Shown here in pieces: positions 21,075 through 46,900 of a DNA stretch of 64,000 nucleotides (positions within the stretch are counted from its first letter, which is position 1; every line of letters starts with the position of its first letter). Below the pieces are notes generated by a model. The model did no database searches. It was not told where the DNA came from and worked only from the letters and a program-made list of their open reading frames with translations. Source of the stretch: Candidatus Saccharimonadales bacterium (GTDB lineage Bacteria > Patescibacteriota > Saccharimonadia > Saccharimonadales > UBA10212); assembly GCA_025450575.1 (NCBI GenBank), contig JANWHE010000016.1, forward strand, positions 93,874 through 157,873, given 5' to 3'. The translations under genes were made by a program, and so were the position numbers.

Positions 21075-22337
21075 TCAGGCTTGTAAAGGATTTTTTAACC
21101 GATTTGCCAACTGGTCCTTTTGGACTATCTCGACCTCTGTCGAGGCTCGTTTTTTTAGCTCTAACCCGCCGGCCGCCAAGCTTTTGTCGCTGACAACCAG
21201 CCGGTACGGGATGCCAAACAGGTCGGCGTCGGCGAACTTCTCGCCGGGGCGCTCGTCGCGGTCATCATACAACACTTTGATATGGTTTTCTGTTAGATAA
21301 TCGTAAGCGGCATCGGCGGCTTGCCGGGCGGCCTCTGAATCGCCCAGGCCGGCCAAGTACACCATGTACGGTGCAATGTTTTCGGGCCACACCAGCCCCT
21401 TATCGTCGGCAAAGTGCTCGGTCACGACGCCCATCAGGCGGGTGACGCCGATGCCGTAACTGCCCAGGACCGCTGGCTTTTGGCTGCCATCTTCATCTGT
21501 AAAATATAACCCCAGTTGCTCGGACTTATGGGTACCGAAGCTAAATATGTTGCCGACTTCGGCGGCCTGGACTTTATCTAGCTTGTCGCGGTTGACGCCG
21601 GCCTGGGCGACGACCTCGTCACTCATGACTTCCTCGTTGATAGCGATGCCTTTCTCGCGGTCCAGATATATGGTGTCTTCGCCGTTGCCAGTGACGGTCT
21701 GGAATTCGTGGCTGAACTGAGTGAAAGCGCCGCCGGAGGCGTAAGTTAAGTAAGTATCGCCGCCCAAGCCGATTTCTTTGAATATCCGAAGGTAAGCCTG
21801 GGTCATCGAGTCGTAGAACTTCTGGTGTTCCTCGTCGCTGCGGGTGAAGGAATAGAGGTCCTTCATGATGAATTCGCGGCTGCGCATAACGCCGCTTTTG
21901 GCCCGGACTTCGTTGCGCAACTTGGTCTGGAACTGATAGACATAGGCTGGCAGGTCGCGGTAGGACGCGATGAACTCGCGCATCATGTCGCTGATCGGCT
22001 CCTCGTGGCTCCAGGCCAGGCCGACTTCGCTGCCGTTGGCTAAATGCGACTTGAACCAGATGTCCACCTTGGCGTCGTCCCAGCGGTCGGTGTGCTCCCA
22101 TAATTCTTTGCGCTGCAAAGACGTCATCAGCAGTTCGTTGCCGCCCTGTTTATTCATTTCGTGGCGGACTATCCGCTTGATGTTCTCGATGACCGCTAGA
22201 CCCATCGGCAATAGAGCGTAAACGCCGGCGGAGTCCTTATAGATAAAGCCGGCCCTTATCAGCAGCTGAGCATTTTTGCTTTCTTCGTCGGCCGGCGCCT
22301 CTTTGCGGGTTTTTATAAACAGTTGTGAGCGTCTCAT
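21075..22337 (-). CDS. proS: prolyl-tRNA synthetase (bacterial type, INS editing domain absent)
   Basis: 420-aa ORF. The N-terminus MRRSQLFIKTRKEAPADEESKNAQLLIRAGFI matches bacterial-type ProRS. It is about 150 aa shorter than INS-containing enzymes. Confidence 0.9.
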   Translation of the reverse strand: MRRSQLFIKTRKEAPADEESKNAQLLIRAGFIYKDSAGVYALLPMGLAVIENIKRIVRHEMNKQGGNELLMTSLQRKELWEHTDRWDDAKVDIWFKSHLANGSEVGLAWSHEEPISDMMREFIASYRDLPAYVYQFQTKLRNEVRAKSGVMRSREFIMKDLYSFTRSDEEHQKFYDSMTQAYLRIFKEIGLGGDTYLTYASGGAFTQFSHEFQTVTGNGEDTIYLDREKGIAINEEVMSDEVVAQAGVNRDKLDKVQAAEVGNIFSFGTHKSEQLGLYFTDEDGSQKPAVLGSYGIGVTRLMGVVTEHFADDKGLVWPENIAPYMVYLAGLGDSEAARQAADAAYDYLTENHIKVLYDDRDERPGEKFADADLFGIPYRLVVSDKSLAAGGLELKKRASTEVEIVQKDQLANRLKNPLQA

Positions 22338-22427
22338 AATTGCTGGCTTAATTCTATCAGATTGCTAAATCATTCCGAAAATTGTACAAATTTTTTATTC
22401 GCCACTATCGGTTCAGTGGAGCGAGCA

Positions 22428-23180
22428 TTATTTGAAATGGACGCCGAAGGCAATCAGATTGTTGAGCATATGGACCAGCATACCGGCGTACAGCGCCCCT
22501 GTCCGGTCACGGAGGAAACACAGGACGATGGATAGCATGAAAGTATCGATGGCGGCCGCCCAGACCAGCGGGCCGCCGCTGCCGAATTCCAGATGGGCAG
22601 CGCCGAAAATCAGGCTAGTAACCAGTACCGCCGGCCAGAAGCGCCAGGCTTTGCGCAGGCCGGAGAACAGATAGCCGCGCACTAGCGTCTCTTCGCCCAG
22701 CGGCGGCAGCAGCACCAAAGAGATGAAGGCCAGCAGGTTCTCGGTGCCGTTATTGATATTGTTGAAGCCGAGGTTCTGCTGCTGGTTGTTGATATCCGGC
22801 GAAATAAGATTGATGATGACCCCGGCGACAATCAGTAGCGCGTAGAAAGCCGCGAAACCGATGGCGCCTTTCCATAAATCGTTCATTTTTGGGCGCCGCC
22901 CCAGGCCGATAACGGATAGTTTGAGCCCTTGGCGGCGAACCAGCATGACAGCCAGCCACGCGGCCAGGCCTTCGGCGATCAGTATATAAAAGAATTGTCC
23001 GGTGATGGAATTGTTAAGGTCGGGGCTGGCGCCCGGCCGGACCAATCCGTAAATTATATCGACTACGAAGAATCCGGCGGCCTGGCTGATGATGAATATC
23101 AGGACTGTTCGGAAAATTACGGTCAGCGGCCGGCCTAAGGTCCCCTTAGACTGCTGCGGACCGGCGGCTGCTTCTTCCAT
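22428..23180 (-). CDS. CPBP family intramembrane glutamic endopeptidase
   Basis: 250-aa multi-TM ORF with EETLVRGYLF, FGAAH and HMLNN motifs. Confidence 0.85.
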   Translation of the reverse strand: MEEAAAGPQQSKGTLGRPLTVIFRTVLIFIISQAAGFFVVDIIYGLVRPGASPDLNNSITGQFFYILIAEGLAAWLAVMLVRRQGLKLSVIGLGRRPKMNDLWKGAIGFAAFYALLIVAGVIINLISPDINNQQQNLGFNNINNGTENLLAFISLVLLPPLGEETLVRGYLFSGLRKAWRFWPAVLVTSLIFGAAHLEFGSGGPLVWAAAIDTFMLSIVLCFLRDRTGALYAGMLVHMLNNLIAFGVHFK

Positions 23181-23183
23181 TGC

Positions 23184-24371
23184 TTAGAAGAACCGCTTAA
23201 CGTCAACGATAGTGATCAGGACGACCAGCGCCATTATCAGCGCGAAGCTGGCGCCGACGATACGTTCTTCGGACGCCCGGCTTAAGGGGCGGCGCAAGAC
23301 GCCGCGGCTGATTATCATCATGGATAGCCGGCCGCCGTCCAGCGCCGGTATCGGCAAGACGTTCATGATGGCCAGCGTCAAAGATATCAGCGCGATAAGC
23401 AGCAGCATGAAATTGATGCCCAGGCTGCCGGAATTCCATAGCGCTACGCCGATGGCGACCGGGCCGCCGACCTGGGCGCTGGCATTATTCTGGCCGTTCT
23501 CCCTGGCCTGATGGTTATTAGTGACCAAGCCGGCGATAGCCGAGCCTAATCCGCCCAGGGCGTGGCCCAGCCCCTGGAAAGTCAGCACGGTTATCTGTTT
23601 AGCGAGCCCTAGGGCGACGATCGGCGCGCTCCAGGTACTGCGTTGGATAGTGACGTTAGTCGGGATGACGCCCAGATTGCCTTGGGGGTTATCGGTTTTA
23701 AGGCTGGCGTCGACCTGGGCTTTGCTGAGCAGCCGGGTGCTGCCAGTCAGCGTCTGGCCGCCACGCTTATAAAAGATAGTCACCTTTTGGCCGGCGAAAG
23801 CCGAAGTGGCGTCGTGGAGCTGGGGTACCGTAGTAATAGTTCTGGCCTGGGAGCCGTCGCTGATGCTGTAAATCTGATCCGAGCTGCGCAGGCCGATTTT
23901 CTGAGCCGGCGAACCGGCCAACACGGAACCGGCCAGGACGGCTTGGCGGATGACGCGCGTATCGCTGGCCACCGTGAACTGGTCTTGGCCGACATTGTCC
24001 TTGGTAATAAGTTTGGGCATGCCGATGAGAGCTAGGACTGTTAGCAAGACCAGCCCGGCGATCAGATTCATGGTGACGCCGGCCAGCATGATCTTGGTCT
24101 TGGTGCCCAGACTGGCCGCACCCAGGCTGCCCTTGCGCTCATCGCTGTCGTGCTCGCCTTTTAATTTCACGAAGCCTCCCAAAGGCAGGATATTGAGGCT
24201 GAGAATCATGCCGGATCTGAGTTTACGGCTCCAGGCCCGAGGCGGAAAACCAAGACCGAACTCTTCGACGTCCACGCCGCTATGGCGGGCCATGATGAAA
24301 TGCCCCCACTCATGGACTAGTATCAAGCCGATGAACAGCAGAAGGCCAAGCCCGAAAACTAAGAACTGCAT
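23184..24371 (-). CDS. rseP: RIP metalloprotease RseP (site-2 protease)
   Basis: 395-aa ORF with HEWGHFIMAR (HExxH) in TM1, a PDZ-like middle region and a C-terminal LPIPALDGG motif. Confidence 0.88.
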   Translation of the reverse strand: MQFLVFGLGLLLFIGLILVHEWGHFIMARHSGVDVEEFGLGFPPRAWSRKLRSGMILSLNILPLGGFVKLKGEHDSDERKGSLGAASLGTKTKIMLAGVTMNLIAGLVLLTVLALIGMPKLITKDNVGQDQFTVASDTRVIRQAVLAGSVLAGSPAQKIGLRSSDQIYSISDGSQARTITTVPQLHDATSAFAGQKVTIFYKRGGQTLTGSTRLLSKAQVDASLKTDNPQGNLGVIPTNVTIQRSTWSAPIVALGLAKQITVLTFQGLGHALGGLGSAIAGLVTNNHQARENGQNNASAQVGGPVAIGVALWNSGSLGINFMLLLIALISLTLAIMNVLPIPALDGGRLSMMIISRGVLRRPLSRASEERIVGASFALIMALVVLITIVDVKRFF

Positions 24372-24400
24372 ACGTTTATTCTAACAGTTTGAAGCTGAGA

Positions 24401-24964
24401 CTAAACTGTTAAAATTTCCTGTTCCTTGGTTTTGGCTAAAACTTCGGCGTCGGTTTTCTGTTTGGCTAGTAAATCATCAATCTGTTTTTCCAGGCCGAAG
24501 CGTTCGTCTTTGCCAATATCTTTGTCCTTTTCGGCCTGGTCGGCGGCCCGCATGGCCTCGTGTCGGGCATTGCGGCCGGCAATCATGCAGTCTTCTAATT
24601 TCTGGTGTAGGACCTTGACCATGGCCTGCCGGGTCTCTTCGGTCAGCGGCGGGATCTGGATGCGCACCACCCGGCCGTCATCAGCCGGATTGAGGCCCAG
24701 GGATTCATCCTTGGAGATAGCATCAGATATGGCCTGCAGATTGGACGGATCGAAAGGCGTGACCTGCAACAACTGGGGTTCCGGCGTGACGATGCTGGCC
24801 ACGGCTTTGAGCGGCATACTTTGGCCGTAGGCTTCGACGGTCACGTTATCCAGCATGCCCGGGTGGGCCCGGCCGGTGCGGATCTTGCCGATTTCCTGGC
24901 GGAAATGTTCGGTGGCGGCATCAAGTTTACCTTTGGTCTGCTGGATCAATTGGTCTTTGTTCAT
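24401..24964 (-). CDS. frr: ribosome recycling factor
   Basis: The ORF track starts at a TTG at 24967. The ATG one codon later (24964) is more likely. The sequence is typical Frr (..MLD.V.VEAYG...PL...A.I...). Confidence 0.93.
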   Translation of the reverse strand: MNKDQLIQQTKGKLDAATEHFRQEIGKIRTGRAHPGMLDNVTVEAYGQSMPLKAVASIVTPEPQLLQVTPFDPSNLQAISDAISKDESLGLNPADDGRVVRIQIPPLTEETRQAMVKVLHQKLEDCMIAGRNARHEAMRAADQAEKDKDIGKDERFGLEKQIDDLLAKQKTDAEVLAKTKEQEILTV

Positions 24965-25110
24965 CAACCATAATTATATAACATTTAGCAGTTGTTGAAA
25001 AATAAGCGGTTCGGTTGTATAATCTTATGTCTGGCAAGCGGGCCACAACGCTTGGTATCTACTAAGATAAAGCGGGCCCGGGCCCGCACATCGACTCCCA
25101 GGAGGGGTGA

Positions 25111-25551
25111 ATGGCACTGCATCTTGAAGTCACATCGACGGCACTGCTCGTCATGAGCCTGTTCTTATACGGCCTGGCGGTGCGGATGGGCAACCGCCAT
25201 GACGCGCGTCGAGCGAAGCGGACAGCCCTGCTCTTCGGGGCTCTCAGCTTGGCGCTGGCGTTCCCCGTCGGTGCCTTGGGCTGGCAGGACCTCTGCCTGG
25301 TCACAGGCCTGGTCCTGTGCGCGGCGGCGGTCCGGGTCCGCGAGGACGTGGAACTGATGATCGTGTACGTCGGGCTGGGAGCGGTAGCTTTCGGCCTATG
25401 GGTGCTTCTCTACCCGATGACCTCGGCGGAGTACGGCTTCGGGTTCGGGTTCGCCGTTCTGGACGCGGCCCTCCTGGCCGTGATCCTGCGGATGGACCGA
25501 CCGAAGAAGGACCCCGCCCCCGAAGCCGGAGCGTCAACGCTGGCGTTCTGA
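25111..25551 (+). CDS. hypothetical 4-TM membrane protein in G+C-rich cassette
   Basis: 146-aa ORF with a GGAGG RBS 6 nt upstream. Codon third positions are strongly G/C-rich, unlike the neighbouring genes, and there are four hydrophobic helices. Confidence 0.6.
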   Translation: MALHLEVTSTALLVMSLFLYGLAVRMGNRHDARRAKRTALLFGALSLALAFPVGALGWQDLCLVTGLVLCAAAVRVREDVELMIVYVGLGAVAFGLWVLLYPMTSAEYGFGFGFAVLDAALLAVILRMDRPKKDPAPEAGASTLAF

Positions 25552-25565
25552 AGAAGGGAGAGTCC

Positions 25566-25703
25566 GTGTTTTTCGCGGCCAACCTGACGGAGTCAAAGCT
25601 GCTTGGGCTCTGCGCCCGACTGAAGTCAGCCTGGTGGACAATCAGCGACAACCTCGCTGAAGTCCGCGGTTTCATCGGCTGGCTCGGGGGCGGCGCGGAG
25701 TAA
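25566..25703 (+). CDS. possible 45-aa ORF (GTG start) in G+C-rich cassette
   Basis: My own translation is VFFAANLTESKLLGLCARLKSAWWTISDNLAEVRGFIGWLGGGAE*. A GGGAG lies 5 nt upstream. It has the same G/C-rich third-position bias as the first cassette gene. Confidence 0.3.
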   Translation: MFFAANLTESKLLGLCARLKSAWWTISDNLAEVRGFIGWLGGGAE

Positions 25704-25730
25704 GCGGCCCAACAAGCGCAAGGAGCAAGC

Positions 25731-25865
25731 ATGAGTCTGACCGAAAAGCTCGGCCTAACGCTGGGCGTATACGCCGCCGTCATGGCGGCGGTCGCCTGGA
25801 AGTTCCGGCTACCCGTGGCCTTCAACCGGGCCCGTAGCAACACCGGCGACCCGTACTACGACTAG
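25731..25865 (+). CDS. possible 44-aa single-TM ORF in G+C-rich cassette
   Basis: My own translation is MSLTEKLGLTLGVYAAVMAAVAWKFRLPVAFNRARSNTGDPYYD*. An AAGGAG lies 6 nt upstream of the ATG. Confidence 0.35.
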   Translation: MSLTEKLGLTLGVYAAVMAAVAWKFRLPVAFNRARSNTGDPYYD

Positions 25866-25951
25866 TTCCAGACAGAGGACGCGGGGTGAGCGCGGCAAGT
25901 CAGCGCTCCCCCGCCCCAGCGGCACGAGCCGCTGCTCGAGATTTTTATCTC

Positions 25952-25974
25952 GCGGCAGTTCCTGCCGCTTTTTT
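25952..25974 (+). terminator. intrinsic terminator closing the G+C-rich cassette
   Basis: Stem GCGGCAG(25952-25958)/CTGCCGC(25962-25968) followed by T6. The T-run overlaps the tsf stop codon on the other strand. Confidence 0.6.
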
Positions 25975-26437
25975 AGTTGATTTCGCCCAGAGCCAGGCGA
26001 CTGAAGCGGCGGACCACGATGTTCTCGCCCAGCTGGGCGTTGGCTTCTTTGACGATATCGCCGACGGTTTTAGAGGGATCCTTGACGAACTCCTGCTTGA
26101 GCAGATCCTCGACGCCTTCCGGCTCACTGGCGGCAATATGCAAGCATAAATCTTTGACTAATTCTTTGAATTCATCGGTTTTAGCCACGAAATCGGTCTC
26201 GCAGTTAACTTCCACTAAGACGCCGATGCGGCCGTCGTGGATGTAGCCGCCTATCAGTCCGGCCCGGGCTTCGCGCTCGCCGCGCTTTTCGGCCTTAGTC
26301 AGGCCTTTGGCGCGCATCTCGCTTAAGGCCTTGTCGAAATCGCCGGCGCTGTCCTGCAGGGCTTTTTTGGCGTCGGTAATGCCGACGCCGGTCAGCTGGC
26401 GCAGGCGCTTGATGTCATCGATCGATATATCGGCCAT
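25973..26437 (-). CDS. tsf: elongation factor Ts (short form)
   Basis: 154-aa ORF with the N-terminal UBA-like motif (IKRLRQLTGVGITDAKKAL) and the core VEVNCETDFVAK. It is much shorter than the ~280-aa EF-Ts of E. coli. Confidence 0.9.
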   Translation of the reverse strand: MADISIDDIKRLRQLTGVGITDAKKALQDSAGDFDKALSEMRAKGLTKAEKRGEREARAGLIGGYIHDGRIGVLVEVNCETDFVAKTDEFKELVKDLCLHIAASEPEGVEDLLKQEFVKDPSKTVGDIVKEANAQLGENIVVRRFSRLALGEIN

Positions 26438-26439
26438 GG

Positions 26440-27219
26440 TTATTTTTCCTCCTTGGTTTCGGCTGCGGCCTCGGCTTTCGGTTCTTCGGCCGGTTTGTCG
26501 GCCTTGTCGGCGGCTTTGGGCTTATCGGCTTGTTTTTTGCCGGCCTCAATAGCGGCTTGAACGTAATCCAGGATAAGATTAATGGCTTTGGTGGCATCGT
26601 CGTTGGCCGGAATCGGGTAATCGGCGACGGTCGGGTCGGCGTTGGTATCAATCAGCGCTACGACCGGTACGCCCAGTTTGCGGGCTTCTTTGATGGCGAT
26701 AGAGTCCTGCAAGGCGTCAACTACGAACACGGCGCCGGGCTTGGCGGCCAGTTCCTTGATGCCGCCGTATAAGTGGTTCATCTCGTCGATTTCTTCCTGG
26801 AAGCGCTGGACTTCCAGCTTGGAGTAGCGGTTAGCCAGCTCGCCGCTGATCATCCGGCTTTCCAAATCCTTAAGGTGTTTGATGCGGCCGCCGATAGTGG
26901 CGCCGTTGGTCAGCATGCCGCCCAGCCAGCGCTCGGTGACATAGGGCATGTTGGTAGCCAAAGCTACTTCTTTGACCTTGTCTTTGGCTTGGCGTTTGGT
27001 GCTGACCAGCAGGATCTGCTTGCCCTGGCCGGTGGTTTTGGTAATGAATTCCAAAGCCCGGTCCAGCGCCTCGACGGTCTTGGTCAGATCGATGATGTGA
27101 TTGCCCTCGCGTTTGCTATGAATATAGGGCGCCATTTTGGGGTGCCAGCGGCTGGTCTGGTGGCCAAAGTGGGCGCCGGCCTCTAATAACTGTTTGATAT
27201 CTACCTGAGCGGTAGCCAT
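26440..27219 (-). CDS. rpsB: 30S ribosomal protein S2
   Basis: The ORF track starts at 27267. I prefer the ATG at 27219 (MATAQVDIKQLLEAGAHFGHQTSRWHPKM), which has an AAAGGA RBS. It has a Lys/Ala/Glu-rich C-terminal tail. Confidence 0.93.
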   Translation of the reverse strand: MATAQVDIKQLLEAGAHFGHQTSRWHPKMAPYIHSKREGNHIIDLTKTVEALDRALEFITKTTGQGKQILLVSTKRQAKDKVKEVALATNMPYVTERWLGGMLTNGATIGGRIKHLKDLESRMISGELANRYSKLEVQRFQEEIDEMNHLYGGIKELAAKPGAVFVVDALQDSIAIKEARKLGVPVVALIDTNADPTVADYPIPANDDATKAINLILDYVQAAIEAGKKQADKPKAADKADKPAEEPKAEAAAETKEEK

Positions 27220-27318
27220 GATGAATCCTTTCTCTTCGGAAAGCGCTTGCCCTGACGGACCCTGCACGAGTCTCGCCGGGAGGATTGATATGCTCCCCTG
27301 CTTAATGTTTACCGGGTT

Positions 27319-27347
27319 ATTCTACCTCTGTTAGGCTTTTTTTGCAA
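27319..27347 (-). promoter_or_regulatory. candidate sigma-70-type promoter of rpsB-tsf
   Basis: On the minus strand: TTGCAA, 17-nt spacer, TAGAAT. This lies about 95 nt upstream of the rpsB ATG. Confidence 0.35.
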
Positions 27348-27373
27348 GCCTTGCGGGGTTCTTTGAACCGAAT

Positions 27374-27958
27374 TTAGTCGGCGTGCTGATAGAAGGTCTC
27401 GTTGACCCGCTCGGCATATTGTGGATTAAGCCGCGGGTCTCTGGCGGCGATCAATAGTTCATCATATGTTCTTTGTACGCGGTCCATGTCTTCTAGAAGC
27501 CGTTCGGCTTCGTCATCTGTAAAGTCGCCGGCGCCCAGACGGGTTTCGGCTTCCCGGTCCAAAGGTTGGGCCGCTTCCACTCTGCCATAGCCACCACTTC
27601 CATAATTAGCTCCATAAAAGACGCTGAAGGCTACGGCTTCTTCGGGATATCGGGTGGCGTACGGAGTGTACTGTTGACCCGAGGCTTCGCCGCCTTTGGC
27701 TGCCGGGAACCCATATACCAGAGCATATTCCTCCTTCCATCCCTCTTTTGAGGTCACGATTCTGACCGATGGCGGGGCGTAGGGTAGCGGTACATCCGGA
27801 CCGGCTATAAGCGTCTGCAGGTACCGAGACAAGCTGGGGCCAACATTATATTGCATGGCTAGTTCCGCCCCCAAACCACGTATGTCGTCTATCTTCGCGC
27901 CCTCTTCTTCCGCCCAGTCGTTATCAAGCGCGAATTCTCCTAATCTTACGTGGCGCAT
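27374..27958 (-). CDS. hypothetical protein
   Basis: 194-aa acidic ORF with no signal peptide. No family recognised. Confidence 0.5.
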   Translation of the reverse strand: MRHVRLGEFALDNDWAEEEGAKIDDIRGLGAELAMQYNVGPSLSRYLQTLIAGPDVPLPYAPPSVRIVTSKEGWKEEYALVYGFPAAKGGEASGQQYTPYATRYPEEAVAFSVFYGANYGSGGYGRVEAAQPLDREAETRLGAGDFTDDEAERLLEDMDRVQRTYDELLIAARDPRLNPQYAERVNETFYQHAD

Positions 27959-28052
27959 AGCATCTCCTCTTTGGAGATTAAGATAGCATCAGCTAAATCG
28001 GCGCGCAAGAGGGATTGACCAACAGGGGTAAATCGATTACAATATCCAAGTT

Positions 28053-38298: not shown

Positions 38299-40245
38299 AT
38301 GCGAAAAAACCCACTACCCAAAACTAAGGTAGCCAAAAGAGCTGTCAGTATGCTGGTCTTACTGATTTTCATATCGACCTTGATGTTTGTCTTCTATCGG
38401 CCGAGGGTACATGCCCAGGTCTTCCTGACAAGTGGAAATACCTGGACGGTACCCTCGGACTGGTCGAATGGCAATAATATTATCGAGGTCATAGGAGGCG
38501 GAGGCGGAGGCGGTGGTGGTTCTTCGGCTGGTCCTGGCAATGGCTGGGGTGGTGGTGGTGGTGGTGGTTATTCTAAGATTCTGAACACCAGCTTCACGCC
38601 CGGTACGGTTGTGACTATAGCCATTGGGGTGGCCGGCACGGCCGGAGCAGCCGGGGGTAATGACGGCGGCGCCGGCGGCGACACTTACCTATGCAGCGCG
38701 ACGACCAGCTGCTCGAGCATAACTGATACGAACGTGATCGTTGGCGCCAAAGGCGGCGGGGCCGGTACATCAACGGGTGGCGGCGCGGGCGGAGCAGCCG
38801 CTAGCGGCGTAGGCTTGAGCAGCTTCAGCGGTGGTACTGGTGGAGCCGGCGCCGGCGGAGCTGGTAACGCCGGAGGCGCCGGCGGATCGGCGGGCGGCGC
38901 GGGCGGACCTAGCGCCGATGGCAACGCAGGCGCTAACGGTTCAGGTGGTAGCGGTAACAGCGGCGGGGCTGGAGCTGCTGGTGGCCGGGCTGACGGCAGC
39001 GCCGGAGGCGCGGGCGGAACGGCCGGAACAGCCGGCGGCGGGGCCGGCGGAGCGGCTGGAAATGGGACTGAATATGATTCTACCCATGGTTCAGGTGGGG
39101 GTGGCGGCAGTGGTGGAGGCGGTGACCGTAGCGCTAACGGCGGGGCCGGCGGAGCTTCCGGTAATTACGGTGGAGGCGGTGGAGGCGGTGGAGGCGGCGG
39201 TCGTAGCGCCGTTGGTAGCGCTGGTGCTGTTGGCAAACAAGGCATCATCCGGATAAGCTATACTCAGGTAAGCCAGGCAGATTACCGTTGGCGGTCCGAT
39301 GACGGCAACGAAACCACTGGCTCTTCCCTGGCGGCTCAGGATACACCGGCCTCGATTAACAGTAGTTCCGCCGTACGATTAAGATTCCTGATTACTGACA
39401 ATGGTGAAAGCACCACTAACACCTATCGTTTAGAGTACGCTCCACACTTAGCAGGCTGTTACACCTGGACTACCGTACCGAATGTAGCTACCACCGAGCA
39501 CTTTAATATGTATAGCACTAGCAATTATACGGACCAGGCGGCCTCGACCAACGTATTATCGGGCCCGGCAGTCATCACCGACCCGTCCGGTTTCAGTTTC
39601 ACGGCCGGCAAGCTCGTCAAATCGACCTCCAACTCCGCGACGGTCACAATCGGCGGCGGCCAGTTCACAGAGATAGAGTATGCTTTCCAGGCCAATTCTA
39701 ACGCCACTTATTCATCCTACTGTTTCCGGGTGACCAACGCCGGCACGCCTTTGGATATTTATAATAATTACCCCATCCTGAATGTCCAGTACACACCTTC
39801 GGCACCGATGGTTTATAGCCCGGCCAGCAGTGCCACCGGAGTGTCGCGGCTGCCGATTTTCCAGATGAGGAGTACCGACCTTAATAATGACTATCTGCAG
39901 TACGTAGTCGAAGTTTGCTCGGCGAACAGCTTCCCTTGCGGCGCGGCTTACAACAAGACATACAATGAGACCAACGCCTGCTGGAGCCAGCAGGATCTGC
40001 AGTCTGGCACGGCTTTCACCGGCTCCAGCGATTTGAACGTCTCGGCGATGGCCTATTGCCAGATCCCGGCCGCCGATTTACTCAGCCCCAATACTACGTA
40101 TTATATGCGCGCCAAAGCCATCGACCCCGGCGGCAGCAACACCTACAGCGCCTATTCATCGGTAGTCAGTTTTACCACATCGACCCTAGACGTCCAGATA
40201 AACGGCGGCTCGACAATCAAAGGTGGCACTAAAATCGGCGGTTAA
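38299..40245 (+). CDS. secreted glycine-rich-domain protein with C-terminal beta-sandwich/FN3-like modules
   Basis: 648-aa ORF with an N-terminal signal/anchor. TSGNTWTVPSDW..IEVIGGGGGGGGG is followed by about 270 aa of Gly/Ala-rich sequence ending in GIIRISY. A non-repetitive C-terminal half follows (YRWRSDDGNET..RLRF..YRLEY, ..TTYYMRAKAIDPGG). Confidence 0.7.
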   Translation: MRKNPLPKTKVAKRAVSMLVLLIFISTLMFVFYRPRVHAQVFLTSGNTWTVPSDWSNGNNIIEVIGGGGGGGGGSSAGPGNGWGGGGGGGYSKILNTSFTPGTVVTIAIGVAGTAGAAGGNDGGAGGDTYLCSATTSCSSITDTNVIVGAKGGGAGTSTGGGAGGAAASGVGLSSFSGGTGGAGAGGAGNAGGAGGSAGGAGGPSADGNAGANGSGGSGNSGGAGAAGGRADGSAGGAGGTAGTAGGGAGGAAGNGTEYDSTHGSGGGGGSGGGGDRSANGGAGGASGNYGGGGGGGGGGGRSAVGSAGAVGKQGIIRISYTQVSQADYRWRSDDGNETTGSSLAAQDTPASINSSSAVRLRFLITDNGESTTNTYRLEYAPHLAGCYTWTTVPNVATTEHFNMYSTSNYTDQAASTNVLSGPAVITDPSGFSFTAGKLVKSTSNSATVTIGGGQFTEIEYAFQANSNATYSSYCFRVTNAGTPLDIYNNYPILNVQYTPSAPMVYSPASSATGVSRLPIFQMRSTDLNNDYLQYVVEVCSANSFPCGAAYNKTYNETNACWSQQDLQSGTAFTGSSDLNVSAMAYCQIPAADLLSPNTTYYMRAKAIDPGGSNTYSAYSSVVSFTTSTLDVQINGGSTIKGGTKIGG

Positions 40246-40959: not shown

Positions 40960-43900
40960 CTAATTGCCGGTCACTACGTATTGGTCGGTGGTTATTGTAT
41001 TGGACGCGCTATTGGCGCTCCAGACCGGGAAGAGATAAAGGTTAGCCGCCGAAGACGTAGTGAGGCCGGTAGTGCTGGCCGTGGATACCATGTTGAATAC
41101 ACCGAACTGACCGGTGGCGGTAGTGGTGGTGACAGTCTGCAGGTAGAACAGCCCCTGGCCGTCCATGCTGGTAGTCGAGAAGCAGACTATCTTGTAATCG
41201 ATTATCCATTGGGCGTTGCTTATCGTTGAGCCGGCAGTGGCCGTCGGCGATGCCGCGCCGATAAGCGTATCGCTGGTACGGGTGGTGTTGGTGCCATAGC
41301 GGACTTCCATCTGCAGGGTCGGGGCGCTGGTCGTACCATAGTGGCCGCGGGCATAGATATGTATCACCCGTCCGGCCTGGCAGTAGTTGGCCGGAATCGA
41401 TGCCGCGCCCAGATTGCCGCAAGCCGTCGTACAGGTGTTGATGGCCGATCCAATGGAAGTATTAGAGTAAAGCAAGCCGTTACAGGTAGTCCAGGCGCCG
41501 GCCACGCCGCACATGAAGTTATGGTCGGTTGAACTGTAGAACATGGCGCCGTTTATCTCGGTGGCAGCGTTGGAAATCGTACCCTGGTTGAAGGTTGAAT
41601 CGCTGTCGGTGTCGAGCACTAGCAGCGTACCGGTAGTGTCGGATGTGCCGATGTTCACAGTGCCGGTGCTGGTGTTAACGTTCAAGAGGCTGGTGCCAAG
41701 ACCGCCGGCGTTGGTGCCGCGAACCGCGAATATTATACCCGCCAGGCTGGTATCGGCGTCCTGGATGTCGAACGCACCGGTATCAGTGCCGCCGGCATTC
41801 AGTTTAATTTCCGGAGTAGTGCTACCTGTCGAGGAGTTATATGTAGTCTGCAATGTAGGCGTGCTGATGGAACCCATCGACGACCAGGTGCCGTTCAGGC
41901 AGCCGCGGAAAGTATTAGAGGTAGTGTTATAGTAGAAGGCCCCGTTGATACAAGTCGGATCGGCGCTGGCCGAACCGAATTTTACTACCGCTGAACCATT
42001 GACCTGCACCTGGCCAGAGCCGCCGGAGTTAAGTATCAAGTAATCCGATGAACCGCTGCCGCTCTGCAGAGTCAGCGTACCGGCGGTAGTCTGCCAGCTA
42101 GAGGCAGCGTGGCCGGTAATATTAACTGCTGCCCCGCTACCAGAATTGACCGTTATGGCACCGCTGCCGGTACCGACCGCTACCGTACCGCTGCTGGCCG
42201 TGTAGTTAGCTGTGCTGGTAGCTGTATCGTAATAAATCAAGGCGTAATTGGTTGAGCCGCCGTTTTCCATAACCCGCAGGGCCCGGCCGCTGGTATCAAC
42301 CGACAAGACGGTGGCGTTACCGGAGTTCTGGACGACGAAACCAGCGGTCGAATCAGTGTTGGTATGGAAAGTGGTCTGCCCGGAGCTATTGACCGTTATG
42401 GAGTTAGCCGCGTTGGCGTTAACCTGCAGCTCAAACCCCTTGCCGGAAGCCGCCTTGACCGAGGCCGCGCCGTTAGCGCCGTCATAGCCAAACTGCGCGC
42501 GGCTATTATTGGCCCCGTAGTAAAAGGAGTTGCTGGAGCTATCGGTGGTAGCCAGCAAATCAACGGCTGAATTGGTACCAGCGCCGGCGTAAATTTTTAC
42601 CCCTTGGGTGGCGGTCAGAGCCTGTGAGGTCGAGCCCAGCGTAATGTAATCGCTGGTAGTGTCGATATTAAACAGGCTGTTGTTGCTGCTGTTCTGTACT
42701 TGGAGAGCCGCCGTTGAATTGGTGGTCACGCTTTGAATCAAGACGCCGTTGTTGGTCGACGAATTCGTTTTTAGGTTTATGCCGGCATCAGATTTCAAGT
42801 TGACCACGCTGCTGCCGCTGTTAGAACCGATATTGACCGTCTGCGTAGTGGTGCTGGCGCCATTGCCGATATTAAAGGTGTGGGTGACGTCGGTGTTGCC
42901 CAGATTGATACCGCCGGTGTTACCGCCCTCGATATTGACGGCGTTGGTCGTGTTACCATTGCTGCCGATAGTTATAGTGTTGGTCGCCGAAGCGTTGGCG
43001 TTAGTAGCGATATTGATAGTCGAGTTACTGGCGTTGCTGGCCGTCAGGCCGATGTTGACCGTCTGGGCGTGGCCGCCGACGTTGCCGATCTTGACGGTAC
43101 CGGCGGCGCCGGTATCGCTATCGATGGTCACGCTGTTGCCGCCGGAAGTAGTGTCGACCGCTATAAAGTTATTGTTGCTGGCGTCTTGGACCACGAAAGC
43201 CGTGGTGCTGCCGCTGCCGGTGGTGTGAACCTTGGTGGCGCCGGTATTGCCAACGCCGAAGACTACTGTTCCCAGGCCTCCCCCGCCGCCGTTACTGGCG
43301 TTGATATCCAGGATATCGGCACCTACCGTACTATCGGCGTCTTGGATATTAAGAGTACTGCGCGTGCTATCAAGTTTGATTTCCGGTGTCGTGCCGCCAA
43401 TTGAGTTAGTGTAGCCGAGCTGAAGCGTACTGGCGTCAATACCGGCGATTGTCCAGGCTGAACCTATGTATATGAGCGTCGCCGAACTGCCCGGTGCCAG
43501 ATTATAGCTGCCCGCCCCCGTATTCAGCGTGAAAGCATTGGTGCCGCCGTTACCTACATAAAGCAGCCGGCCAGTGGTCGCCGTCGTCGGCGCCGGGACC
43601 GTGAAAGTCAGGCCTGTAGCCGTAGCCGTGGCGCTGATGGTGGTATTGTTATCGACCAAAGACTGGGTGATGGTGCTGTTAGCGCCACTGGTGTAGGTGT
43701 TAGATGCGAAAACCGTGCCGCCGGCCACAGTTACGGTCGGCGTGGAGGTATTGACGCTGAAGACAGCGGCGCTACCAGTGGTCTGAACCTGGAAGGCCGA
43801 CGTGGAGTTGGCGGCGTTCTTGACGGTCACGTTACCGGCGGCGCCGACGCCGGTATTCAGTCCGGCGACCAGAGTGATATTGCCACCGGCGTTGTCACCG

Positions 43901-46900
43901 GATCCGCCGGCGGCGCCGCCATTGATGCTCACGTTGCCACCGGCGGATCCGGTGCTGCTGCCGTTGCCGGCGCCCCCATAGAGGTTCAAGTTGCCGCCGG
44001 CCGTCCCGGTCGCCGATGAACCCGTACCCTTGACGTTGAAGTTATTCGGTGCGGCATTCGTTCCGCTGCCATCGGCGTTGCCTAAGTACAAGTTATTGCT
44101 CTGATCAAAAGTAGCTCGCCCCGTGTTGTTAGTTATAATCTGCAAGCTGTTGGCGTCTTTGGTTCCCAAGCTGGCTAAGCTGCCGGTCAGGCTGCCTAAG
44201 GTGTTGCCGCCGTTCACGAAAGCCACGCCGGTTCCGGTAGTGATACAAGCCGCCAGTTTGTTGGAGCTATTCCGGCACAGGTAAGAGGTGTTATCAGCTG
44301 TGCCTAGGGCTCCGGCGGCCACAATGATGCCGCCGCCCGGCTGCAAGGTTAGGCTGCCGCCGATGGTCGAACCGATAGTAATCGTGCTGGCGCTGCTGGC
44401 CGTAGTATTGGTCGAACCGATGTTTATCGTCTGGGTTACGGCCACGCCGGTAGAGTTACCTATCTGGACAGTCGAACCGGTCTGAGTATTGCCAAGATAT
44501 AGAGTGCCACCGTTGGTGTCGGCCTGTATGTAAGTATGGCTGCCAGCGGCGTCCTGCACCTGGAAGCCGTTAGTGTTGGTTACTTGGAAAGAGTTAGTGC
44601 TAGAGAAAGTGTTAGCCGCGTTATTCAGGACGATGTGGGAGCTATCGCTAAGGTTAGTGCTAGCGATTTGCGAGCCGCCGACTTCGTAGAATTTAGTGGC
44701 CGGAATATTGACATTACCATCCTTATCAACGCTGAATTTCTCAGCGCCCCCATTTTGCAAGCTCAACAGCTTAGCTCCGGCTGTAGAATAGGTATTGGCA
44801 GTATTGAGCGTAAAGCCGACAGCGCTGGCGCCGTCGGCCAGATTGCTGAATAGCTTGTTGGTGGTGGCGTCAACGCCCAGCACCGTGACGCTAGAGGAGT
44901 TCTGAACCTGGAAAGCCGTGCTTGAGGTGTTGGTTATCAGCAACGGCGCCGGCTCGTTGGCTTTCTTCAGATAAAAATCATCGAAGTAGAACGTGCCGGT
45001 GGTTGCCGTAGCTTTGACGCTAGCCGCCAGCCGCAGGAAGTAAGAACCGGCCGGGACAGTGGCGGTTATCGTCTTCTTGACATAGCTGGTGCCTGGCAGT
45101 CCGGTGTCGGCGTTGCTGAAGGTCGTGCTGGCTTTGTCTTTGTCGTCAAATTCTATGTAGATTCCGGCATCACCGGTAGCGCCAGCGCTGTTCTTGACCC
45201 AGGCTTCGGCGTAGATAGTATCGCCCGGATGTACTGCGAAGTACGGTGTCGTTACGGCGTGAGTCGTGGAGTTGCCGGTTACCTGCAGTTCGTAATTGCC
45301 GCTGTGGGCATTGGCCGAGCTGTTGGTTATCACCTGCGTGGCGCTAGGCGTATACCAGCCGGTGGCATCGGTTGTCCCGCTGGATTCAAAACTAGGATTT
45401 TGGATTTCATTGCCCAGGTTATCTACCCCGTTATTAATCACGTAACCGTCGCTGGTGTTGGCATTAAGCAAAGCCGAAGCCGTTGAGGTCTGGATTCGAA
45501 AAGCGGTGTTTGAATCACTGAAGTTTTCAAAAGCGGCGGCGCCGGTAGTGGACAGACTTTGAACCACGTGATTATTAGTTATGATATTCAGACCATTCGA
45601 ATCAATGGTGCCCAAGACTCCAGTACCTCCAAAGCCGCTATTTCCGCCGTTGACAAAGGCGGTGCCCGTCCCAGAAATAAACCCGCAGCTGGAACTGGCC
45701 TGAATACACAGCGTTCCATTTTCGGCCGGTAAATGGATAGTGTAGCCGGTACTGCTTGGGTTAGTGGCATCAAGCGTTATGGACCCAGTCTGGGCGGCGA
45801 AATTAAACTTTAATTTGCCGGTAATGCCACTGGCGCCGGAGTTGCCCAGAATCACCGTATCACCCGCGGTATCGACAGTTAAGACAGACTTGCTTGAGGC
45901 CGAATCGTTTATTACTAGACCGGCGGCATTATTGTTGGCTAAGGTGGTCAATCCGCCATTAGCGATCGTCAGTACCGGCGTGGCATTATTCTTAAAGACG
46001 GCGATATTCCCAGTCGAGGTTGAATTAGACACATTCAGGGCGTCGCCGCTGGTCGAGCCGGTCAATGAAGTCAGCGCCGATGTTACCGTCAAGGTTTTAC
46101 TGGCCGCCACCGTCGTGTTGCCGCCCAGGCTGATGCCGCCGGAACCGGAGTTCAGACTCAGCGCCCCGCCATTAACGCTATTGCCGATCGTGACGTTGGT
46201 CAACCCGGTACCAGCCGGCGTGCCGGCGCCGATATTAATGGTCTGGGTCTTGCCGGTAGCGGTATTGGCGTTGCCGATGTTAATGGTATTGGTATCCGTT
46301 GATTGGCCGAAGGTCAGGCCGCCGGTTTCGGATGTCGAACCAATTGTGATAGTACTGGCAGCCGTATCCGGGTTGATATTAAGGCCGCCGCCATCGCTTA
46401 TAGTAAGAACGGGGGTAGAATTATCATTGAATACGGCGATATTGCCGGTCGAGGTGGAGTTGCTGACGTTTAGAGCGTCGCCGCTGGTCGCGCCGGTCAG
46501 CGATGTTAAGGCCGATGTGACAGACAGAGTCTTGCCGGCCGCCACGGTCGTATTATTGCCCAGAGTTATCCCGCCTCCGCCATCTATGGCCGTCACCGCC
46601 GAACCACCGGTCTGGCCGATAGTTATGCCGCTGGCGCTAGTCGTACCGATTGATATGGTGCCGGTAGTCCCGGTGCCGGATTTCGTGCCCGAGTCGATGG
46701 TGATATTGCCGCTGCTGCTGTTGGTGCCGCCGGCGGCATCGCCGGACTTGATAGTCACGCTGCCGGAACTTAAGCTGCTGCCGGTCTCGTTGCCGCTGCG
46801 CAAGGTTATGGCCGCGGTATTGGCGGCCGCCGAATCAGTGGTCTGGACCAGCGGCGTCTGCAGCGCCGTGCCAATAATCCCCGTTCCGCTGATGTTAAAG

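What the first reader, a model, noticed from the sequence alone, without database searches (positions are those of the whole stretch)
25060..25975. G+C-rich three-gene membrane-peptide cassette in the slot where pyrH normally sits (tsf-[pyrH]-frr)
In many bacteria rpsB-tsf-pyrH-frr are contiguous. Here tsf (ends 25973) and frr (starts 24964) are separated by about 1 kb with no UMP kinase. The gap carries, on the opposite strand, a 146-aa 4-TM protein followed by two RBS-preceded mini-ORFs of 45 and 44 aa. Composition jumps. The sample lines I counted give 37/60 G+C (25141-25200) and 41/60 (25261-25320), against 25/60 in frr (24421-24480) and 31/60 in tsf (26101-26160). Third codon positions in the cassette are almost all G/C. 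The cassette is bounded on the left by a GC palindrome, GCGGGCCCGGGCCCGC (about 25071-25086). On the right it ends in three to four back-to-back hairpins (25888-25974), the last being a T-tailed terminator. This looks like a horizontally acquired insert from a high-G+C donor. If the organism is an episymbiont of Actinobacteria, that host would be an obvious donor, but this is speculative. The gene content (small hydrophobic proteins) fits a holin-like, toxin/immunity or membrane-peptide module.
Basis: partly seen in the sequence, partly recalled or inferred. Interest (0 to 1): 0.7.

Follow-up and report, generated by a model that had tools for sequence, protein, structure and literature searches.

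The report
Old GC-rich membrane-protein operon, Saccharimonadales
The G+C-rich stretch between the frr and tsf genes of this soil Saccharimonadales (TM7) genome is a real small operon for a five-helix membrane protein and two mini-proteins. It has been inherited in this same slot through a whole subclade, so it is not a recent import from a high-G+C donor, and the odd part is that it stays G+C-rich in every lineage.

Summary
Observation confirmed. tsf (25973-26437, -) and frr (24401-24964, -) are 1 kb apart. The gap carries three RBS-preceded + strand ORFs of 146, 45 and 44 aa. GC is 0.647 against 0.552 for the window, and GC3 is 0.78-0.87 against 0.675±0.06.

Interpretation only partly supported.
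- pyrH was not displaced. No Saccharimonadales locus examined has pyrH in this slot, and many have tsf and frr 6-30 nt apart.
- The cassette is not a recent import. It sits in the same slot, collinear with its flanks, in independent assemblies, so chimerism is excluded.
- A profile search of 1.84 billion proteins found eight relatives of ORF1. All lie between frr and tsf, and all seven lineages that could be placed (plus the window) fall in one Saccharimonadales subclade.
- No actinobacterial, phage or plasmid relative exists, and no known protein or RNA family matches.

ORF1 has five hydrophobic helices, not four, and is the conserved core. ORF2 and ORF3 are clade-specific, and ORF2 is deleted in one lineage.

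The promoter, a two-hairpin 5' leader (which includes the "boundary" palindrome) and a double-hairpin 3' terminator block recur across lineages, some with other cargo.

The real oddity is that ORF1 keeps GC3 at 0.81-0.90 in hosts whose neighbouring genes have GC3 of 0.52-0.73. Function is unknown. Moderate interest.

The parts
24973..25001 (-). frr promoter-like site (TTTTCA-17-TATAAT). The -10 box ends 8 nt before the frr ATG at 24964, so the frr mRNA would be near-leaderless.
   Evidence: A TATAAT box is also present a few nt upstream of the frr ATG in the empty junctions of L001 and L004.
24995..25023 (+). Cassette promoter: TTGAAA, 17-nt spacer, TATAAT (11 of 12 consensus matches).
   Evidence: Both hexamers are invariant in window, L085 and L081. 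The same TTGAAAAATA...TATAAT arrangement is seen in L088-L091 and L003, and variants of it in L092-L094, L002 and L017.
25030..25110 (+). 5' leader. Hairpin 1 has stems 25035-25040 and 25049-25054 (GCAAGC-G...CGCTTG). Hairpin 2 is the GC palindrome at 25072-25087. The RBS AGGAGGGG is at 25100-25107.
   Evidence: Positions 25030-25068 are invariant across three lineages whose flanking genes have dS of 0.16-0.7. Hairpin 2 is the consensus structure in 10 lineages. Folding of the window leader alone is not significant (z = -1.58).
25111..25551 (+). ORF1: a 146-aa integral membrane protein with five hydrophobic helices. It is the conserved core of the cassette and belongs to an unnamed family.
   Evidence: (invariant G54 G66 D79 W97 M103). 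dN/dS is 0.26-0.48. It is the only reading frame open in all nine lineages.
25566..25703 (+). ORF2: a 45-aa amphipathic mini-protein with a GTG start. It is not transmembrane and is dispensable in nature.
   Evidence: 81% aa identity and dN/dS 0.23 against L081, with substitutions concentrated at codon position 3. Window 25561-25719 is precisely absent in L085, where the gap falls between the ORF2 and ORF3 RBS regions. Maximum hydropathy is 0.94.
25731..25865 (+). ORF3: a 44-aa single-pass membrane mini-protein with a polar, basic C-terminal tail.
   Evidence: It is conserved as an ORF in L081 and L085. dN/dS of 0.5-0.65 is not significantly below 1 by my rough estimate. No similarity to mini-ORFs of other lineages.
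25881..25914 (+). 3' hairpin a (GCGGGGUGAGCGC...GCGCUCCCCCGC).
   Evidence: Compensatory changes at pairs 13/39, 15/37 and 16/36 across 8 lineages.
25918..25975 (+). Long composite terminator hairpin. The outer stem AGCGGCA/UGCCGCU has an invariant CGGC/GCCG core. It encloses an inner hairpin and is followed by a U-tract that overlaps the tsf stop codon (25973-25975).
   Evidence: z = -5.45 for 25866-25978. It is single-copy in the window.

Best explanation
This is an old, lineage-specific accessory operon. It sits in a fixed 'expression slot' between frr and tsf in one subclade of soil Saccharimonadales.

The slot has a conserved chassis:
- a sigma-70-type promoter, divergent from frr;
- a two-hairpin 5' leader;
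- a double-hairpin 3' block whose terminator abuts the stop codon of the convergent tsf gene.

In this window the cargo is a fast-evolving five-helix integral membrane protein (ORF1, the conserved core) plus two young add-ons, the amphipathic ORF2 and the single-pass ORF3. The cassette entered the slot once, near the base of the subclade. It then diverged together with the host genome and was lost or replaced in some lineages.

Its G+C richness is not the residue of a recent transfer. It is a property that is actively kept up. The most likely cause is selection for a very stable, highly structured mRNA. Locally biased gene conversion in a recombination-prone slot is the alternative.

Shown: the anatomy, coding status, distribution, co-divergence and persistent GC3.

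Inferred: that the products act in the cell envelope or membrane; that the leader hairpins control mRNA stability or translation; and that the terminator block insulates the cassette from the heavily transcribed rpsB-tsf operon. Read-through from that operon would be antisense to the cassette and would run on into frr.
For: Identity of the organism: frr relatives are Saccharimonadales MAGs.

Same slot and synteny in independent assemblies: L081-L084 and L085-L087.

Co-divergence with the flanks:
- One continuous blastn alignment spans window 22000-27334 against L081.
- ORF dS is 0.10-0.49, against 0.16-0.71 for flanking genes.
- dN/dS is 0.23-0.65, against 0.03-0.12 for flanking genes.

Family distribution:
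- The profile HMM search gives 9 hits. Eight are proteins of 137-150 aa and all eight are encoded between frr and tsf. The ninth is a weak match (E = 6.5e-4) to a 2102-aa protein and was not pursued.
- The alignment has invariant G, D, W and M positions.
- The seven ORF1-carrying lineages that could be placed on the frr+rseP NJ tree, together with the window, form one subclade.
- The ORF1 tree agrees with it at nodes that have 100% bootstrap support.

The chassis is conserved beyond the cargo: L003, L002 and L017 carry the same or a variant promoter with other membrane genes, and L002 and L017 also end in 3' hairpins; the L003 contig stops short of its 3' end.

Persistent GC3: ORF1 has 0.81-0.90 in 8 of 9 lineages, against 0.52-0.73 for flanking genes.

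Extra RNA structure:
- The coding block gives z = -3.10 against a control of -0.82.
- Synonymous-codon shuffles give a mean z of -1.83 for ORF1 (8 of 9 negative) against -0.28 for frr.
- The 3' block gives z = -5.45 and shows compensatory pairs.
Against: - The family is absent from all 80 GTDB-representative loci. That includes L001 and L004, which lie inside the subclade, so at least 2-4 losses or replacements are needed.
- L088 and L089 are 89% identical in frr but only 31% identical in ORF1. This could mean allele exchange rather than strict vertical descent.
- The ORF1 tree is poorly resolved inside the main clade (bootstrap 20-55%).
- In ORF1 and ORF3, substitutions are almost evenly spread over the three codon positions.
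- ORF3's dN/dS is not clearly below 1.
- The mRNA-structure signal is modest, rests on 20-40 shuffles, and one lineage (L091) goes the other way.
- L094 has near-normal GC3 (0.60).
- There are no expression or protein data. The AlphaFold model has low confidence (pLDDT 67.7) and matches no solved or viral structure.
- Function is therefore unknown.
Confidence: 0.6

Rival explanations
1. Ancient horizontal acquisition from a high-G+C donor (for example an actinobacterial host) at the base of the subclade. After that, either the cassette has been exchanged repeatedly among Saccharimonadales by homologous recombination in the conserved frr/tsf/chassis flanks, or biased gene conversion in this recombination-prone slot has kept it G+C-rich.
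For: - The block is absent from most Saccharimonadales, which have empty junctions.
- All three codon positions are GC-shifted (0.71/0.46/0.82).
- Other, non-homologous cargo in the same slot is also GC3-rich: L017 0.77-0.84, L005 0.81, L012 0.71.
- The L088/L089 discordance between ORF1 and frr.
- Diverse cargo across relatives marks the slot as a hotspot.
Against: - No donor homologue in 1.84 billion representative proteins or 5.8 billion clusters.
- No integrase, repeats or att-like duplication.
- The supported nodes of the ORF1 tree match the host tree.
- Some slot cargo is not GC-rich, for example in L002 and L014.
Confidence: 0.2
2. Recent horizontally acquired island from a high-G+C donor that replaced pyrH.
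For: A local GC jump (0.647 against 0.552) and raised GC3. Opposite-strand orientation. Hairpins at both ends.
Against: - pyrH is absent from the slot throughout the order.
- The cassette is shared and co-diverged across lineages with frr identity of 71-99%.
- The end hairpins are functional UTR elements conserved across lineages, not insertion scars.
- No donor is detectable.
Confidence: 0.05
3. A toxic small-membrane-peptide module (type I toxin-antitoxin-like or holin-like). In this reading the highly structured, stable mRNA keeps ORF3 (or ORF1) translationally silent, and antisense transcription from rpsB-tsf read-through acts as the antidote.
For: - ORF3 is a 44-aa single-pass peptide with a charged tail.
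- The mRNA is unusually structured, with conserved 5' and 3' hairpin modules.
- The convergent arrangement has zero spacing to tsf.
Against: - The conserved element is the 146-aa ORF1, not a short peptide.
- The mini-ORFs turn over or are absent: L088, L091 and L094 have none.
- There is no promoter-like site for an antisense sRNA inside the cassette.
- There is no phage context and no PHROG, PADLOC or Pfam holin or toxin match.
Confidence: 0.1
4. The ORFs are spurious. G+C-rich DNA has few stop codons, and the block is really a structured non-coding RNA or a transcriptional insulator between rpsB-tsf and frr.
For: - Long stop-free runs occur in other frames too.
- Substitutions in ORF1 and ORF3 are nearly even across codon positions.
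- RNA structure is strong.
Against: - Only the ORF1 frame is open in all nine lineages.
- There is protein-level conservation where the DNA no longer aligns (HMMER E = 1e-25 to 1e-28).
- A GGAGG-type RBS (AAGGAG in four lineages) lies 5-9 nt upstream of each start (for L092 counting from a GTG start read upstream of the annotated ATG).
- Five hydrophobic helices follow the positive-inside rule in their loop charges (my reading of the sequence; segments).
- The GC1 > GC2 < GC3 pattern holds.
- ORF1 dN/dS is 0.48, about 2.7 SE below 1 by my estimate.
- No Rfam match.
Confidence: 0.03

Closest known systems
Integration/variable hotspots flanked by core genes in bacterial chromosomes (general concept, recalled from the literature and not retrieved here)
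   Same: The same pair of conserved core genes (tsf and frr) brackets a segment whose content differs between related genomes. Contents seen: empty junctions, the ORF1 cassette, other mini membrane ORFs, CDP-alcohol phosphatidyltransferase, PLD-like proteins, an fn3 protein and MOSC.
   Different: A conserved promoter, leader and terminator 'chassis' persists while the cargo changes. There are no mobility genes. The ORF1 cargo looks vertically inherited rather than repeatedly acquired.
Type I toxin-antitoxin loci such as hok/sok (recalled, not tested experimentally)
   Same: Small hydrophobic peptide gene(s) on an mRNA with conserved, stable 5' and 3' structures. Potential antisense overlap with a neighbouring transcript.
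   Different: The conserved core is a 146-aa five-helix protein. No dedicated antisense sRNA promoter was found. The small ORFs are not conserved across lineages. No family match.
Excludon-type convergent/antisense operon arrangements (Listeria; recalled)
   Same: Read-through from rpsB-tsf would be antisense to the whole cassette and would continue into frr. The ancestral state was tsf and frr directly adjacent on the same strand.
   Different: This is inferred from geometry alone. There are no transcript data, and the cassette has its own strong terminator facing tsf.
Canonical rpsB-tsf-pyrH-frr gene order of most bacteria
   Same: rpsB-tsf...frr-rseP synteny is retained. In other phyla (for example L046, Pyrinomonadaceae) pyrH fills the gap.
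   Different: No Saccharimonadales locus examined has pyrH there. In this order the default state is tsf directly followed by frr.

Membership tests
Recently acquired genomic island from a high-G+C donor | Composition atypical for the host | tested here: met
   GC 0.647 against 0.552. GC3 0.78-0.87 against 0.675±0.06.
Recently acquired genomic island from a high-G+C donor | Restricted to one or a few very close relatives, and not co-diverged with its flanks | tested here: not met
   Present in 9 lineages whose frr identity to the window is 71-99%. dS is similar to that of the flanks. All placeable lineages fall in a single subclade.
Recently acquired genomic island from a high-G+C donor | Identifiable homologues in a donor group (Actinobacteria, their phages or plasmids) | tested here: not met
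   None found.
Recently acquired genomic island from a high-G+C donor | Mobility signatures: integrase or transposase, flanking direct repeats, a tRNA or att site | tested here: not met
   The slot holds only three small ORFs. The end structures are conserved UTR hairpins. Cassette elements are single-copy in the window.
Replacement of pyrH in rpsB-tsf-pyrH-frr | Relatives carry pyrH between tsf and frr | tested here: not met
   PyrH tblastn gives no significant hit in the roughly 50 Saccharimonadales loci held (one chance match at E = 6.6). Nine loci have gaps of 6-30 nt.
Phage holin / lysis cassette | Match to a holin family, or an adjacent endolysin or other phage genes | tested here: not met
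   PHROGs gives only matches to families of unknown function at E>=0.013. There are no phage genes nearby, no phage tblastn hit, and no viral fold match.
Type I toxin-antitoxin | Hydrophobic toxin peptide shorter than 60 aa | tested here: inconclusive
   ORF3 fits (44 aa, one transmembrane segment). But it is confined to three lineages, and other lineages carry ORF1 alone.
Type I toxin-antitoxin | Cis-encoded antisense sRNA with its own promoter | tested here: not met
   No promoter-like site on the - strand inside 25030-25970. Read-through from tsf remains possible but was not testable.
Type I toxin-antitoxin | Toxicity of the peptide and neutralisation by the RNA | not testable with these tools
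   Needs expression experiments.
Core-gene-flanked variable slot (hotspot) | The same flanking core genes with empty, differently filled and similarly filled states among relatives | tested here: met
   Gaps range from 6 nt to 3.9 kb, with unrelated cargo.
Known protein or RNA family (Pfam, NCBIfam, PDB, Rfam) | Significant profile, sequence or fold match | tested here: not met

The most novel reading that the evidence does not exclude
A vertically inherited bacterial gene cassette has its synonymous-site G+C content actively held at about 0.85, whatever the host genome's own composition (GC3 0.52-0.73). The reason would be that its mRNA must be exceptionally stable or structured, or must itself act as an RNA. 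The conserved 5' and 3' hairpin modules would then work together with antisense read-through from the rpsB-tsf operon, coupling ribosome-gene transcription to expression of an envelope protein in an episymbiotic, reduced-genome bacterium.
Probability: 0.15. Interest if true: 0.6.

Novelty: new member of a known kind. Interest (0 to 1): 0.4.

Why it matters
On its face this is one more uncharacterised accessory membrane-protein operon in a candidate-phyla-radiation genome. Three points have some wider value.

1. It is a clean counter-example to using local G+C or GC3 excess as evidence of recent horizontal transfer. The excess is older than the divergence of lineages whose ORF1 proteins are only 27-45% identical.

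2. It defines a new five-helix membrane protein family, found so far only in a Saccharimonadales subclade. The family has a conserved promoter, leader and terminator chassis that also hosts other envelope and lipid genes in sister lineages. That makes it a candidate locus for surface or host-interaction functions in soil Saccharibacteria.

3. The persistence of high GC3 in a low-GC host gives a small, tractable case for separating selection on mRNA structure from biased gene conversion.

Tried and rejected
- Rfam, at gathering threshold on the whole window and at E<=10 on 24900-26050: only chance-level hits.
- Pfam, NCBIfam, PHROGs and PADLOC on ORF1-3, and Pfam on all ten ORF1-family members: nothing consistent.
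- PDB sequence profile search, and Foldseek against PDB and BFVD with a low-confidence model: no match with E<=0.001.
- tblastn against phages, blastn against plasmids, and protein-pattern scans of viral contigs and GTDB genomes: no match.
Only one of them (L155, the same contig as L083) was real.
- My impression that ORF3 shares a C-terminal motif with the L090 and L003 mini-ORFs was not supported by shuffle-tested alignments.
- The idea that ORF1 derives from the CDP-alcohol phosphatidyltransferase or the small membrane ORF in the sister lineage L017 was rejected by hhalign (probability 0.1).
- The GC palindrome as a - strand terminator for tsf read-through: the U-rich tail is not conserved across lineages, so this was not adopted.
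- The antisense 180-aa ORF (25301-25843, -) is not conserved as an open frame.
- Near-identical contigs (L081-84, L085-87) carry 0-1 SNP, too few to polarise AT/GC changes.
- Literature searches found nothing on this locus.
Full report
**What is there**

The window (64 kb, 55.2% G+C) comes from a soil-type Saccharimonadales (TM7). The nearest frr relatives in GTDB genomes are all Saccharimonadales MAGs.

- frr is at 24401-24964, a short 154-aa tsf at 25973-26437, and rpsB at 26440-27267. All are on the - strand.
- The 1005-nt gap carries three + strand ORFs, each preceded by an RBS: ORF1 at 25111-25551 (146 aa), ORF2 at 25566-25703 (GTG start, 45 aa) and ORF3 at 25731-25865 (44 aa).
- The block has 64.7% G+C. 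That is 2.9 sd above the mean of equal-sized windows and is the second-highest peak in the window.
- GC3 is 0.82, 0.78 and 0.87, against 0.675±0.061 for the window's long ORFs.
- A near-consensus promoter (TTGAAA-17-TATAAT, 24995-25023) faces the cassette. A second promoter-like site on the other strand faces frr.
- The 3' end folds into hairpin a (25881-25914) and a long composite terminator hairpin (25918-25969) with a U-tract that overlaps the tsf stop codon. MFE is -58.7 kcal/mol, z = -5.45.
- ORF1 has five hydrophobic segments and five predicted helices. ORF3 has one transmembrane segment. ORF2 is amphipathic, not hydrophobic.

**pyrH**

A PyrH taken from a Pyrinomonadaceae locus (L046), where it does fill the tsf-frr gap, finds nothing significant by tblastn. 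This holds for the window and for all of the roughly 50 Saccharimonadales loci (±6 kb).

In many Saccharimonadales, tsf and frr are 6-30 nt apart (L001, L008, L016, L018, L022, L024, L026, L030, L036). In others the gap holds 0.1-3.9 kb of unrelated cargo. The cassette therefore did not displace pyrH. The default state in this order is tsf directly followed by frr. I did not establish whether pyrH exists elsewhere in the genome.

**Not a chimera and not recent**

ORF1 has only two relatives in the 5.8-billion-cluster word-indexed search: P0001 at 95% identity and P0002 at 64%. Both are encoded in the same slot, on seven syntenic contigs from seven different samples (L081-L084 and L085-L087). 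That excludes an assembly artefact.

- The window aligns to L081 as one continuous block from 22000 to 27334, at 85% nt identity. It aligns to L085 at 94%, apart from one indel.
- Synonymous divergence of the cassette ORFs is similar to, or somewhat below, that of the flanks. Window against L081: 0.37-0.50 for the ORFs, 0.53-0.71 for flanks. Window against L085: 0.10 for the ORFs, 0.16-0.29 for flanks.
- dN/dS is 0.26-0.48 for ORF1, 0.23 for ORF2 and 0.5-0.65 for ORF3. The flanking genes give 0.03-0.12.
- The indel in L085 removes exactly window 25561-25719, which is ORF2. The gap falls between the ORF2 and ORF3 RBS regions. L081 retains ORF2, so this is a loss in L085.

**A real, older family**

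A profile of the three ORF1 sequences was searched against 1.84 billion representative proteins. It recovered P0005-P0011, which are 137-150 aa long, with E-values from 4e-28 to 4e-5. A ninth hit was a weak match to a 2102-aa protein and was not pursued.

- Every one of these small proteins is encoded between frr and tsf where both flanks are visible, divergent from frr and convergent with tsf, in syntenic Saccharimonadales contigs (L088-L096).
- The ten-sequence alignment has invariant G54, G66, D79, W97 and M103, and nearly invariant N28, D60 and Y101.
- An HMM of this alignment finds no member in any of the 80 GTDB-representative loci, and no second copy in the window.
- On an frr+rseP NJ tree, the seven ORF1 carriers that could be placed, together with the window, fall in one subclade. 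That subclade also contains L001 and L004, which have empty junctions of 25 and 56 nt. It also contains L002 and L003, which hold other mini membrane ORFs.
- The ORF1 tree has the same supported structure. L092, L093 and L094 lie outside a clade with 100% bootstrap support that holds the window group, L088, L089, L090 and L091.
- The simplest history is one gain near the base of the subclade, vertical descent, and several losses or replacements.
- One discordance remains. L088 and L089 are 89% identical in frr but only 31% identical in ORF1. This leaves room for some allele exchange.

**A conserved chassis**

*5' side.* The promoter hexamers are conserved, and in the three closest lineages the leader 25030-25068 is invariant. 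Across the deeper lineages two leader hairpins recur: hairpin 1 (GCAAGCG...CGCTTG) and hairpin 2 (GTGCGGGCC...GGCCCGCAC). They are followed by a pyrimidine-rich linker and an RBS of the GGAGG type (AAGGAG in four lineages).

*3' side.* Hairpin a shows compensatory changes: pair 13/39 is GC in four lineages, CG in two, UA in one and AU in one. The long terminator keeps an invariant CGGC/GCCG core in its outer stem (GCGGCA/UGCCGC), with compensatory change in an inner pair.

*Beyond the ORF1 cargo.* L003 has the same promoter, with a different 72-aa and 45-aa ORF pair. L002 has a variant promoter, four mini membrane ORFs and a similar hairpin a. The sister lineage L017 has a variant of the promoter and a CDP-alcohol phosphatidyltransferase flanked by small membrane ORFs. 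Elsewhere in the order the slot holds PLD-like proteins, an fn3 protein, a sugar-transferase fragment or a MOSC protein.

These elements are single-copy in the window, so they are not dispersed repeats.

**The real anomaly**

ORF1 homologues keep GC3 at 0.81-0.90 whatever the host composition:

| Locus | ORF1 GC3 | Flanking-gene GC3 |
|---|---|---|
| window | 0.82 | 0.71 |
| L088 | 0.86 | 0.53 |
| L089 | 0.89 | 0.52 |
| L091 | 0.85 | 0.55 |
| L092 | 0.88 | 0.60 |
| L093 | 0.90 | 0.68 |
| L094 (the exception) | 0.60 | 0.53 |

These proteins are only 27-45% identical, so synonymous sites should be saturated. A transferred gene would long since have drifted to the host's composition. That last step is an inference from standard amelioration reasoning.

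Something therefore maintains the G+C richness. Two candidates remain.

(a) *Selection for a highly structured mRNA.*
- The 755-nt coding block folds with z = -3.10 against dinucleotide shuffles. A control segment of rseP gives -0.82.
- Synonymous-codon shuffles give a mean z of -1.83 for ORF1 over nine lineages. Eight are negative and four are at or below -2.6. frr gives -0.28.
- The cassette's dS is lower than that of its flanks.

(b) *A slot-specific fixation bias such as biased gene conversion.*
- Unrelated cargo in the same slot is often GC3-rich as well: L017 0.77-0.84, L005 0.81, L012 0.71.
- Not all of it is, however (L002, L014).
- Another GC3-rich membrane ORF lies in a different variable slot of L092.

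The present data do not decide between the two.

**Coding status**

In favour of ORF1 being translated:
- The ORF1 frame is the only one open in all nine lineages.
- There is protein-level conservation where the DNA no longer aligns.
- Each start is preceded by a GGAGG- or AAGGAG-type RBS.
- The five helices have loop charges that fit the positive-inside rule.
- The GC1 > GC2 < GC3 pattern holds.
- dN/dS is below 1.

Cautions:
- Substitutions between the window and L081 are spread almost evenly over codon positions in ORF1 (39/28/40) and ORF3 (10/7/9). ORF2 (5/4/13) and frr (10/4/44) show the usual excess at position 3.
- ORF3's dN/dS is not clearly below 1.
- ORF2 and ORF3 have no detectable relatives outside the window/L081/L085 group. 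The mini-ORFs after ORF1 in other lineages are unrelated or absent. They look like young, replaceable add-ons.

**Function**

No Pfam, NCBIfam, PHROG, PADLOC, PDB-sequence, Foldseek (PDB, BFVD) or Rfam match was found.

My working model, inferred and not shown, has four parts:
- ORF1 is an envelope or membrane protein, expressed from its own strong promoter.
- The leader hairpins set mRNA stability or translation.
- The double-hairpin terminator insulates the cassette from the convergent, heavily transcribed rpsB-tsf operon.
- Any read-through from tsf would be antisense to the cassette and would lead on into frr, giving an excludon-like coupling.

The membrane and lipid theme of other cargo in this slot, together with the fast evolution of ORF1, fits an envelope or host-contact role. 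This is weak evidence.

**Verdict**

The headline interpretation, a recent high-G+C import sitting in pyrH's place, is not supported.

The feature is an ancient, subclade-specific accessory operon in a conserved expression slot. It carries an unusual and persistent compositional signature. Interest is moderate at 0.4: the protein family and its RNA elements are new but of unknown function, and the persistence of high GC3 is the one result a specialist would find surprising.

Noticed in passing
window 27335-28014 (ORF 27374-27958, - strand): A 194-aa ORF with no family match lies between rpsB and rpmE. It sits inside a segment that is absent from the close relative L081, so this is a second indel next to the ribosomal operon. 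Its GC3 is 0.55, below the window average.
   Followed up: partly
window 25973-26437 (tsf): EF-Ts here is a short 154-aa form; the Pfam EF_TS match covers only profile positions 1-76 of 204. L091-L094 carry 199-200-aa forms, and the tblastn spans suggest a similarly long form in L001. Both forms occur across Saccharimonadales.
   Followed up: no
window 24964-25001 (- strand): The frr promoter-like -10 box (TATAAT, 24978-24973) ends 8 nt before the frr ATG, which implies a leaderless or near-leaderless frr mRNA. A TATAAT box is also present a few nt upstream of the frr ATG in the empty junctions of L001 and L004.
   Followed up: partly
window 38299-40245 (+), GC peak 38441-39356: This is the highest-G+C stretch of the window (0.663). 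It lies inside a 648-aa ORF with an unusual GC2 of 0.62, next to a 2206-aa ORF (40960-47580, -). It may be a low-complexity or surface protein.
   Followed up: no
L017 4640-6000; L006 3672-5946; L013 1704-2789: In other Saccharimonadales the same tsf-frr slot carries phospholipid-type enzymes. L017 has a CDP-alcohol phosphatidyltransferase (GC3 0.84 against a host value of 0.61), behind a variant of the cassette promoter. L006 has a PLD-like protein followed by a second similar ORF, and L013 has a look-alike ORF that was not scanned against Pfam.
   Followed up: partly
L002 4600-5394: A sister lineage fills the slot with four RBS-preceded mini membrane ORFs of 57, 33, 41 and 39 aa. One has a type IV pilin-like N-terminal segment (SLIELLTVLIIAGVL).
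   Followed up: no
L092 8327-8818: Another GC3-rich membrane ORF (GC3 0.87 against a host value of about 0.60) sits in the rpsB-rpmE variable slot of a low-GC relative. Persistent high GC3 may therefore not be unique to the tsf-frr slot.
   Followed up: no
window 1-64000: No Rfam family reaches its gathering score anywhere in the 64-kb window.
   Followed up: partly
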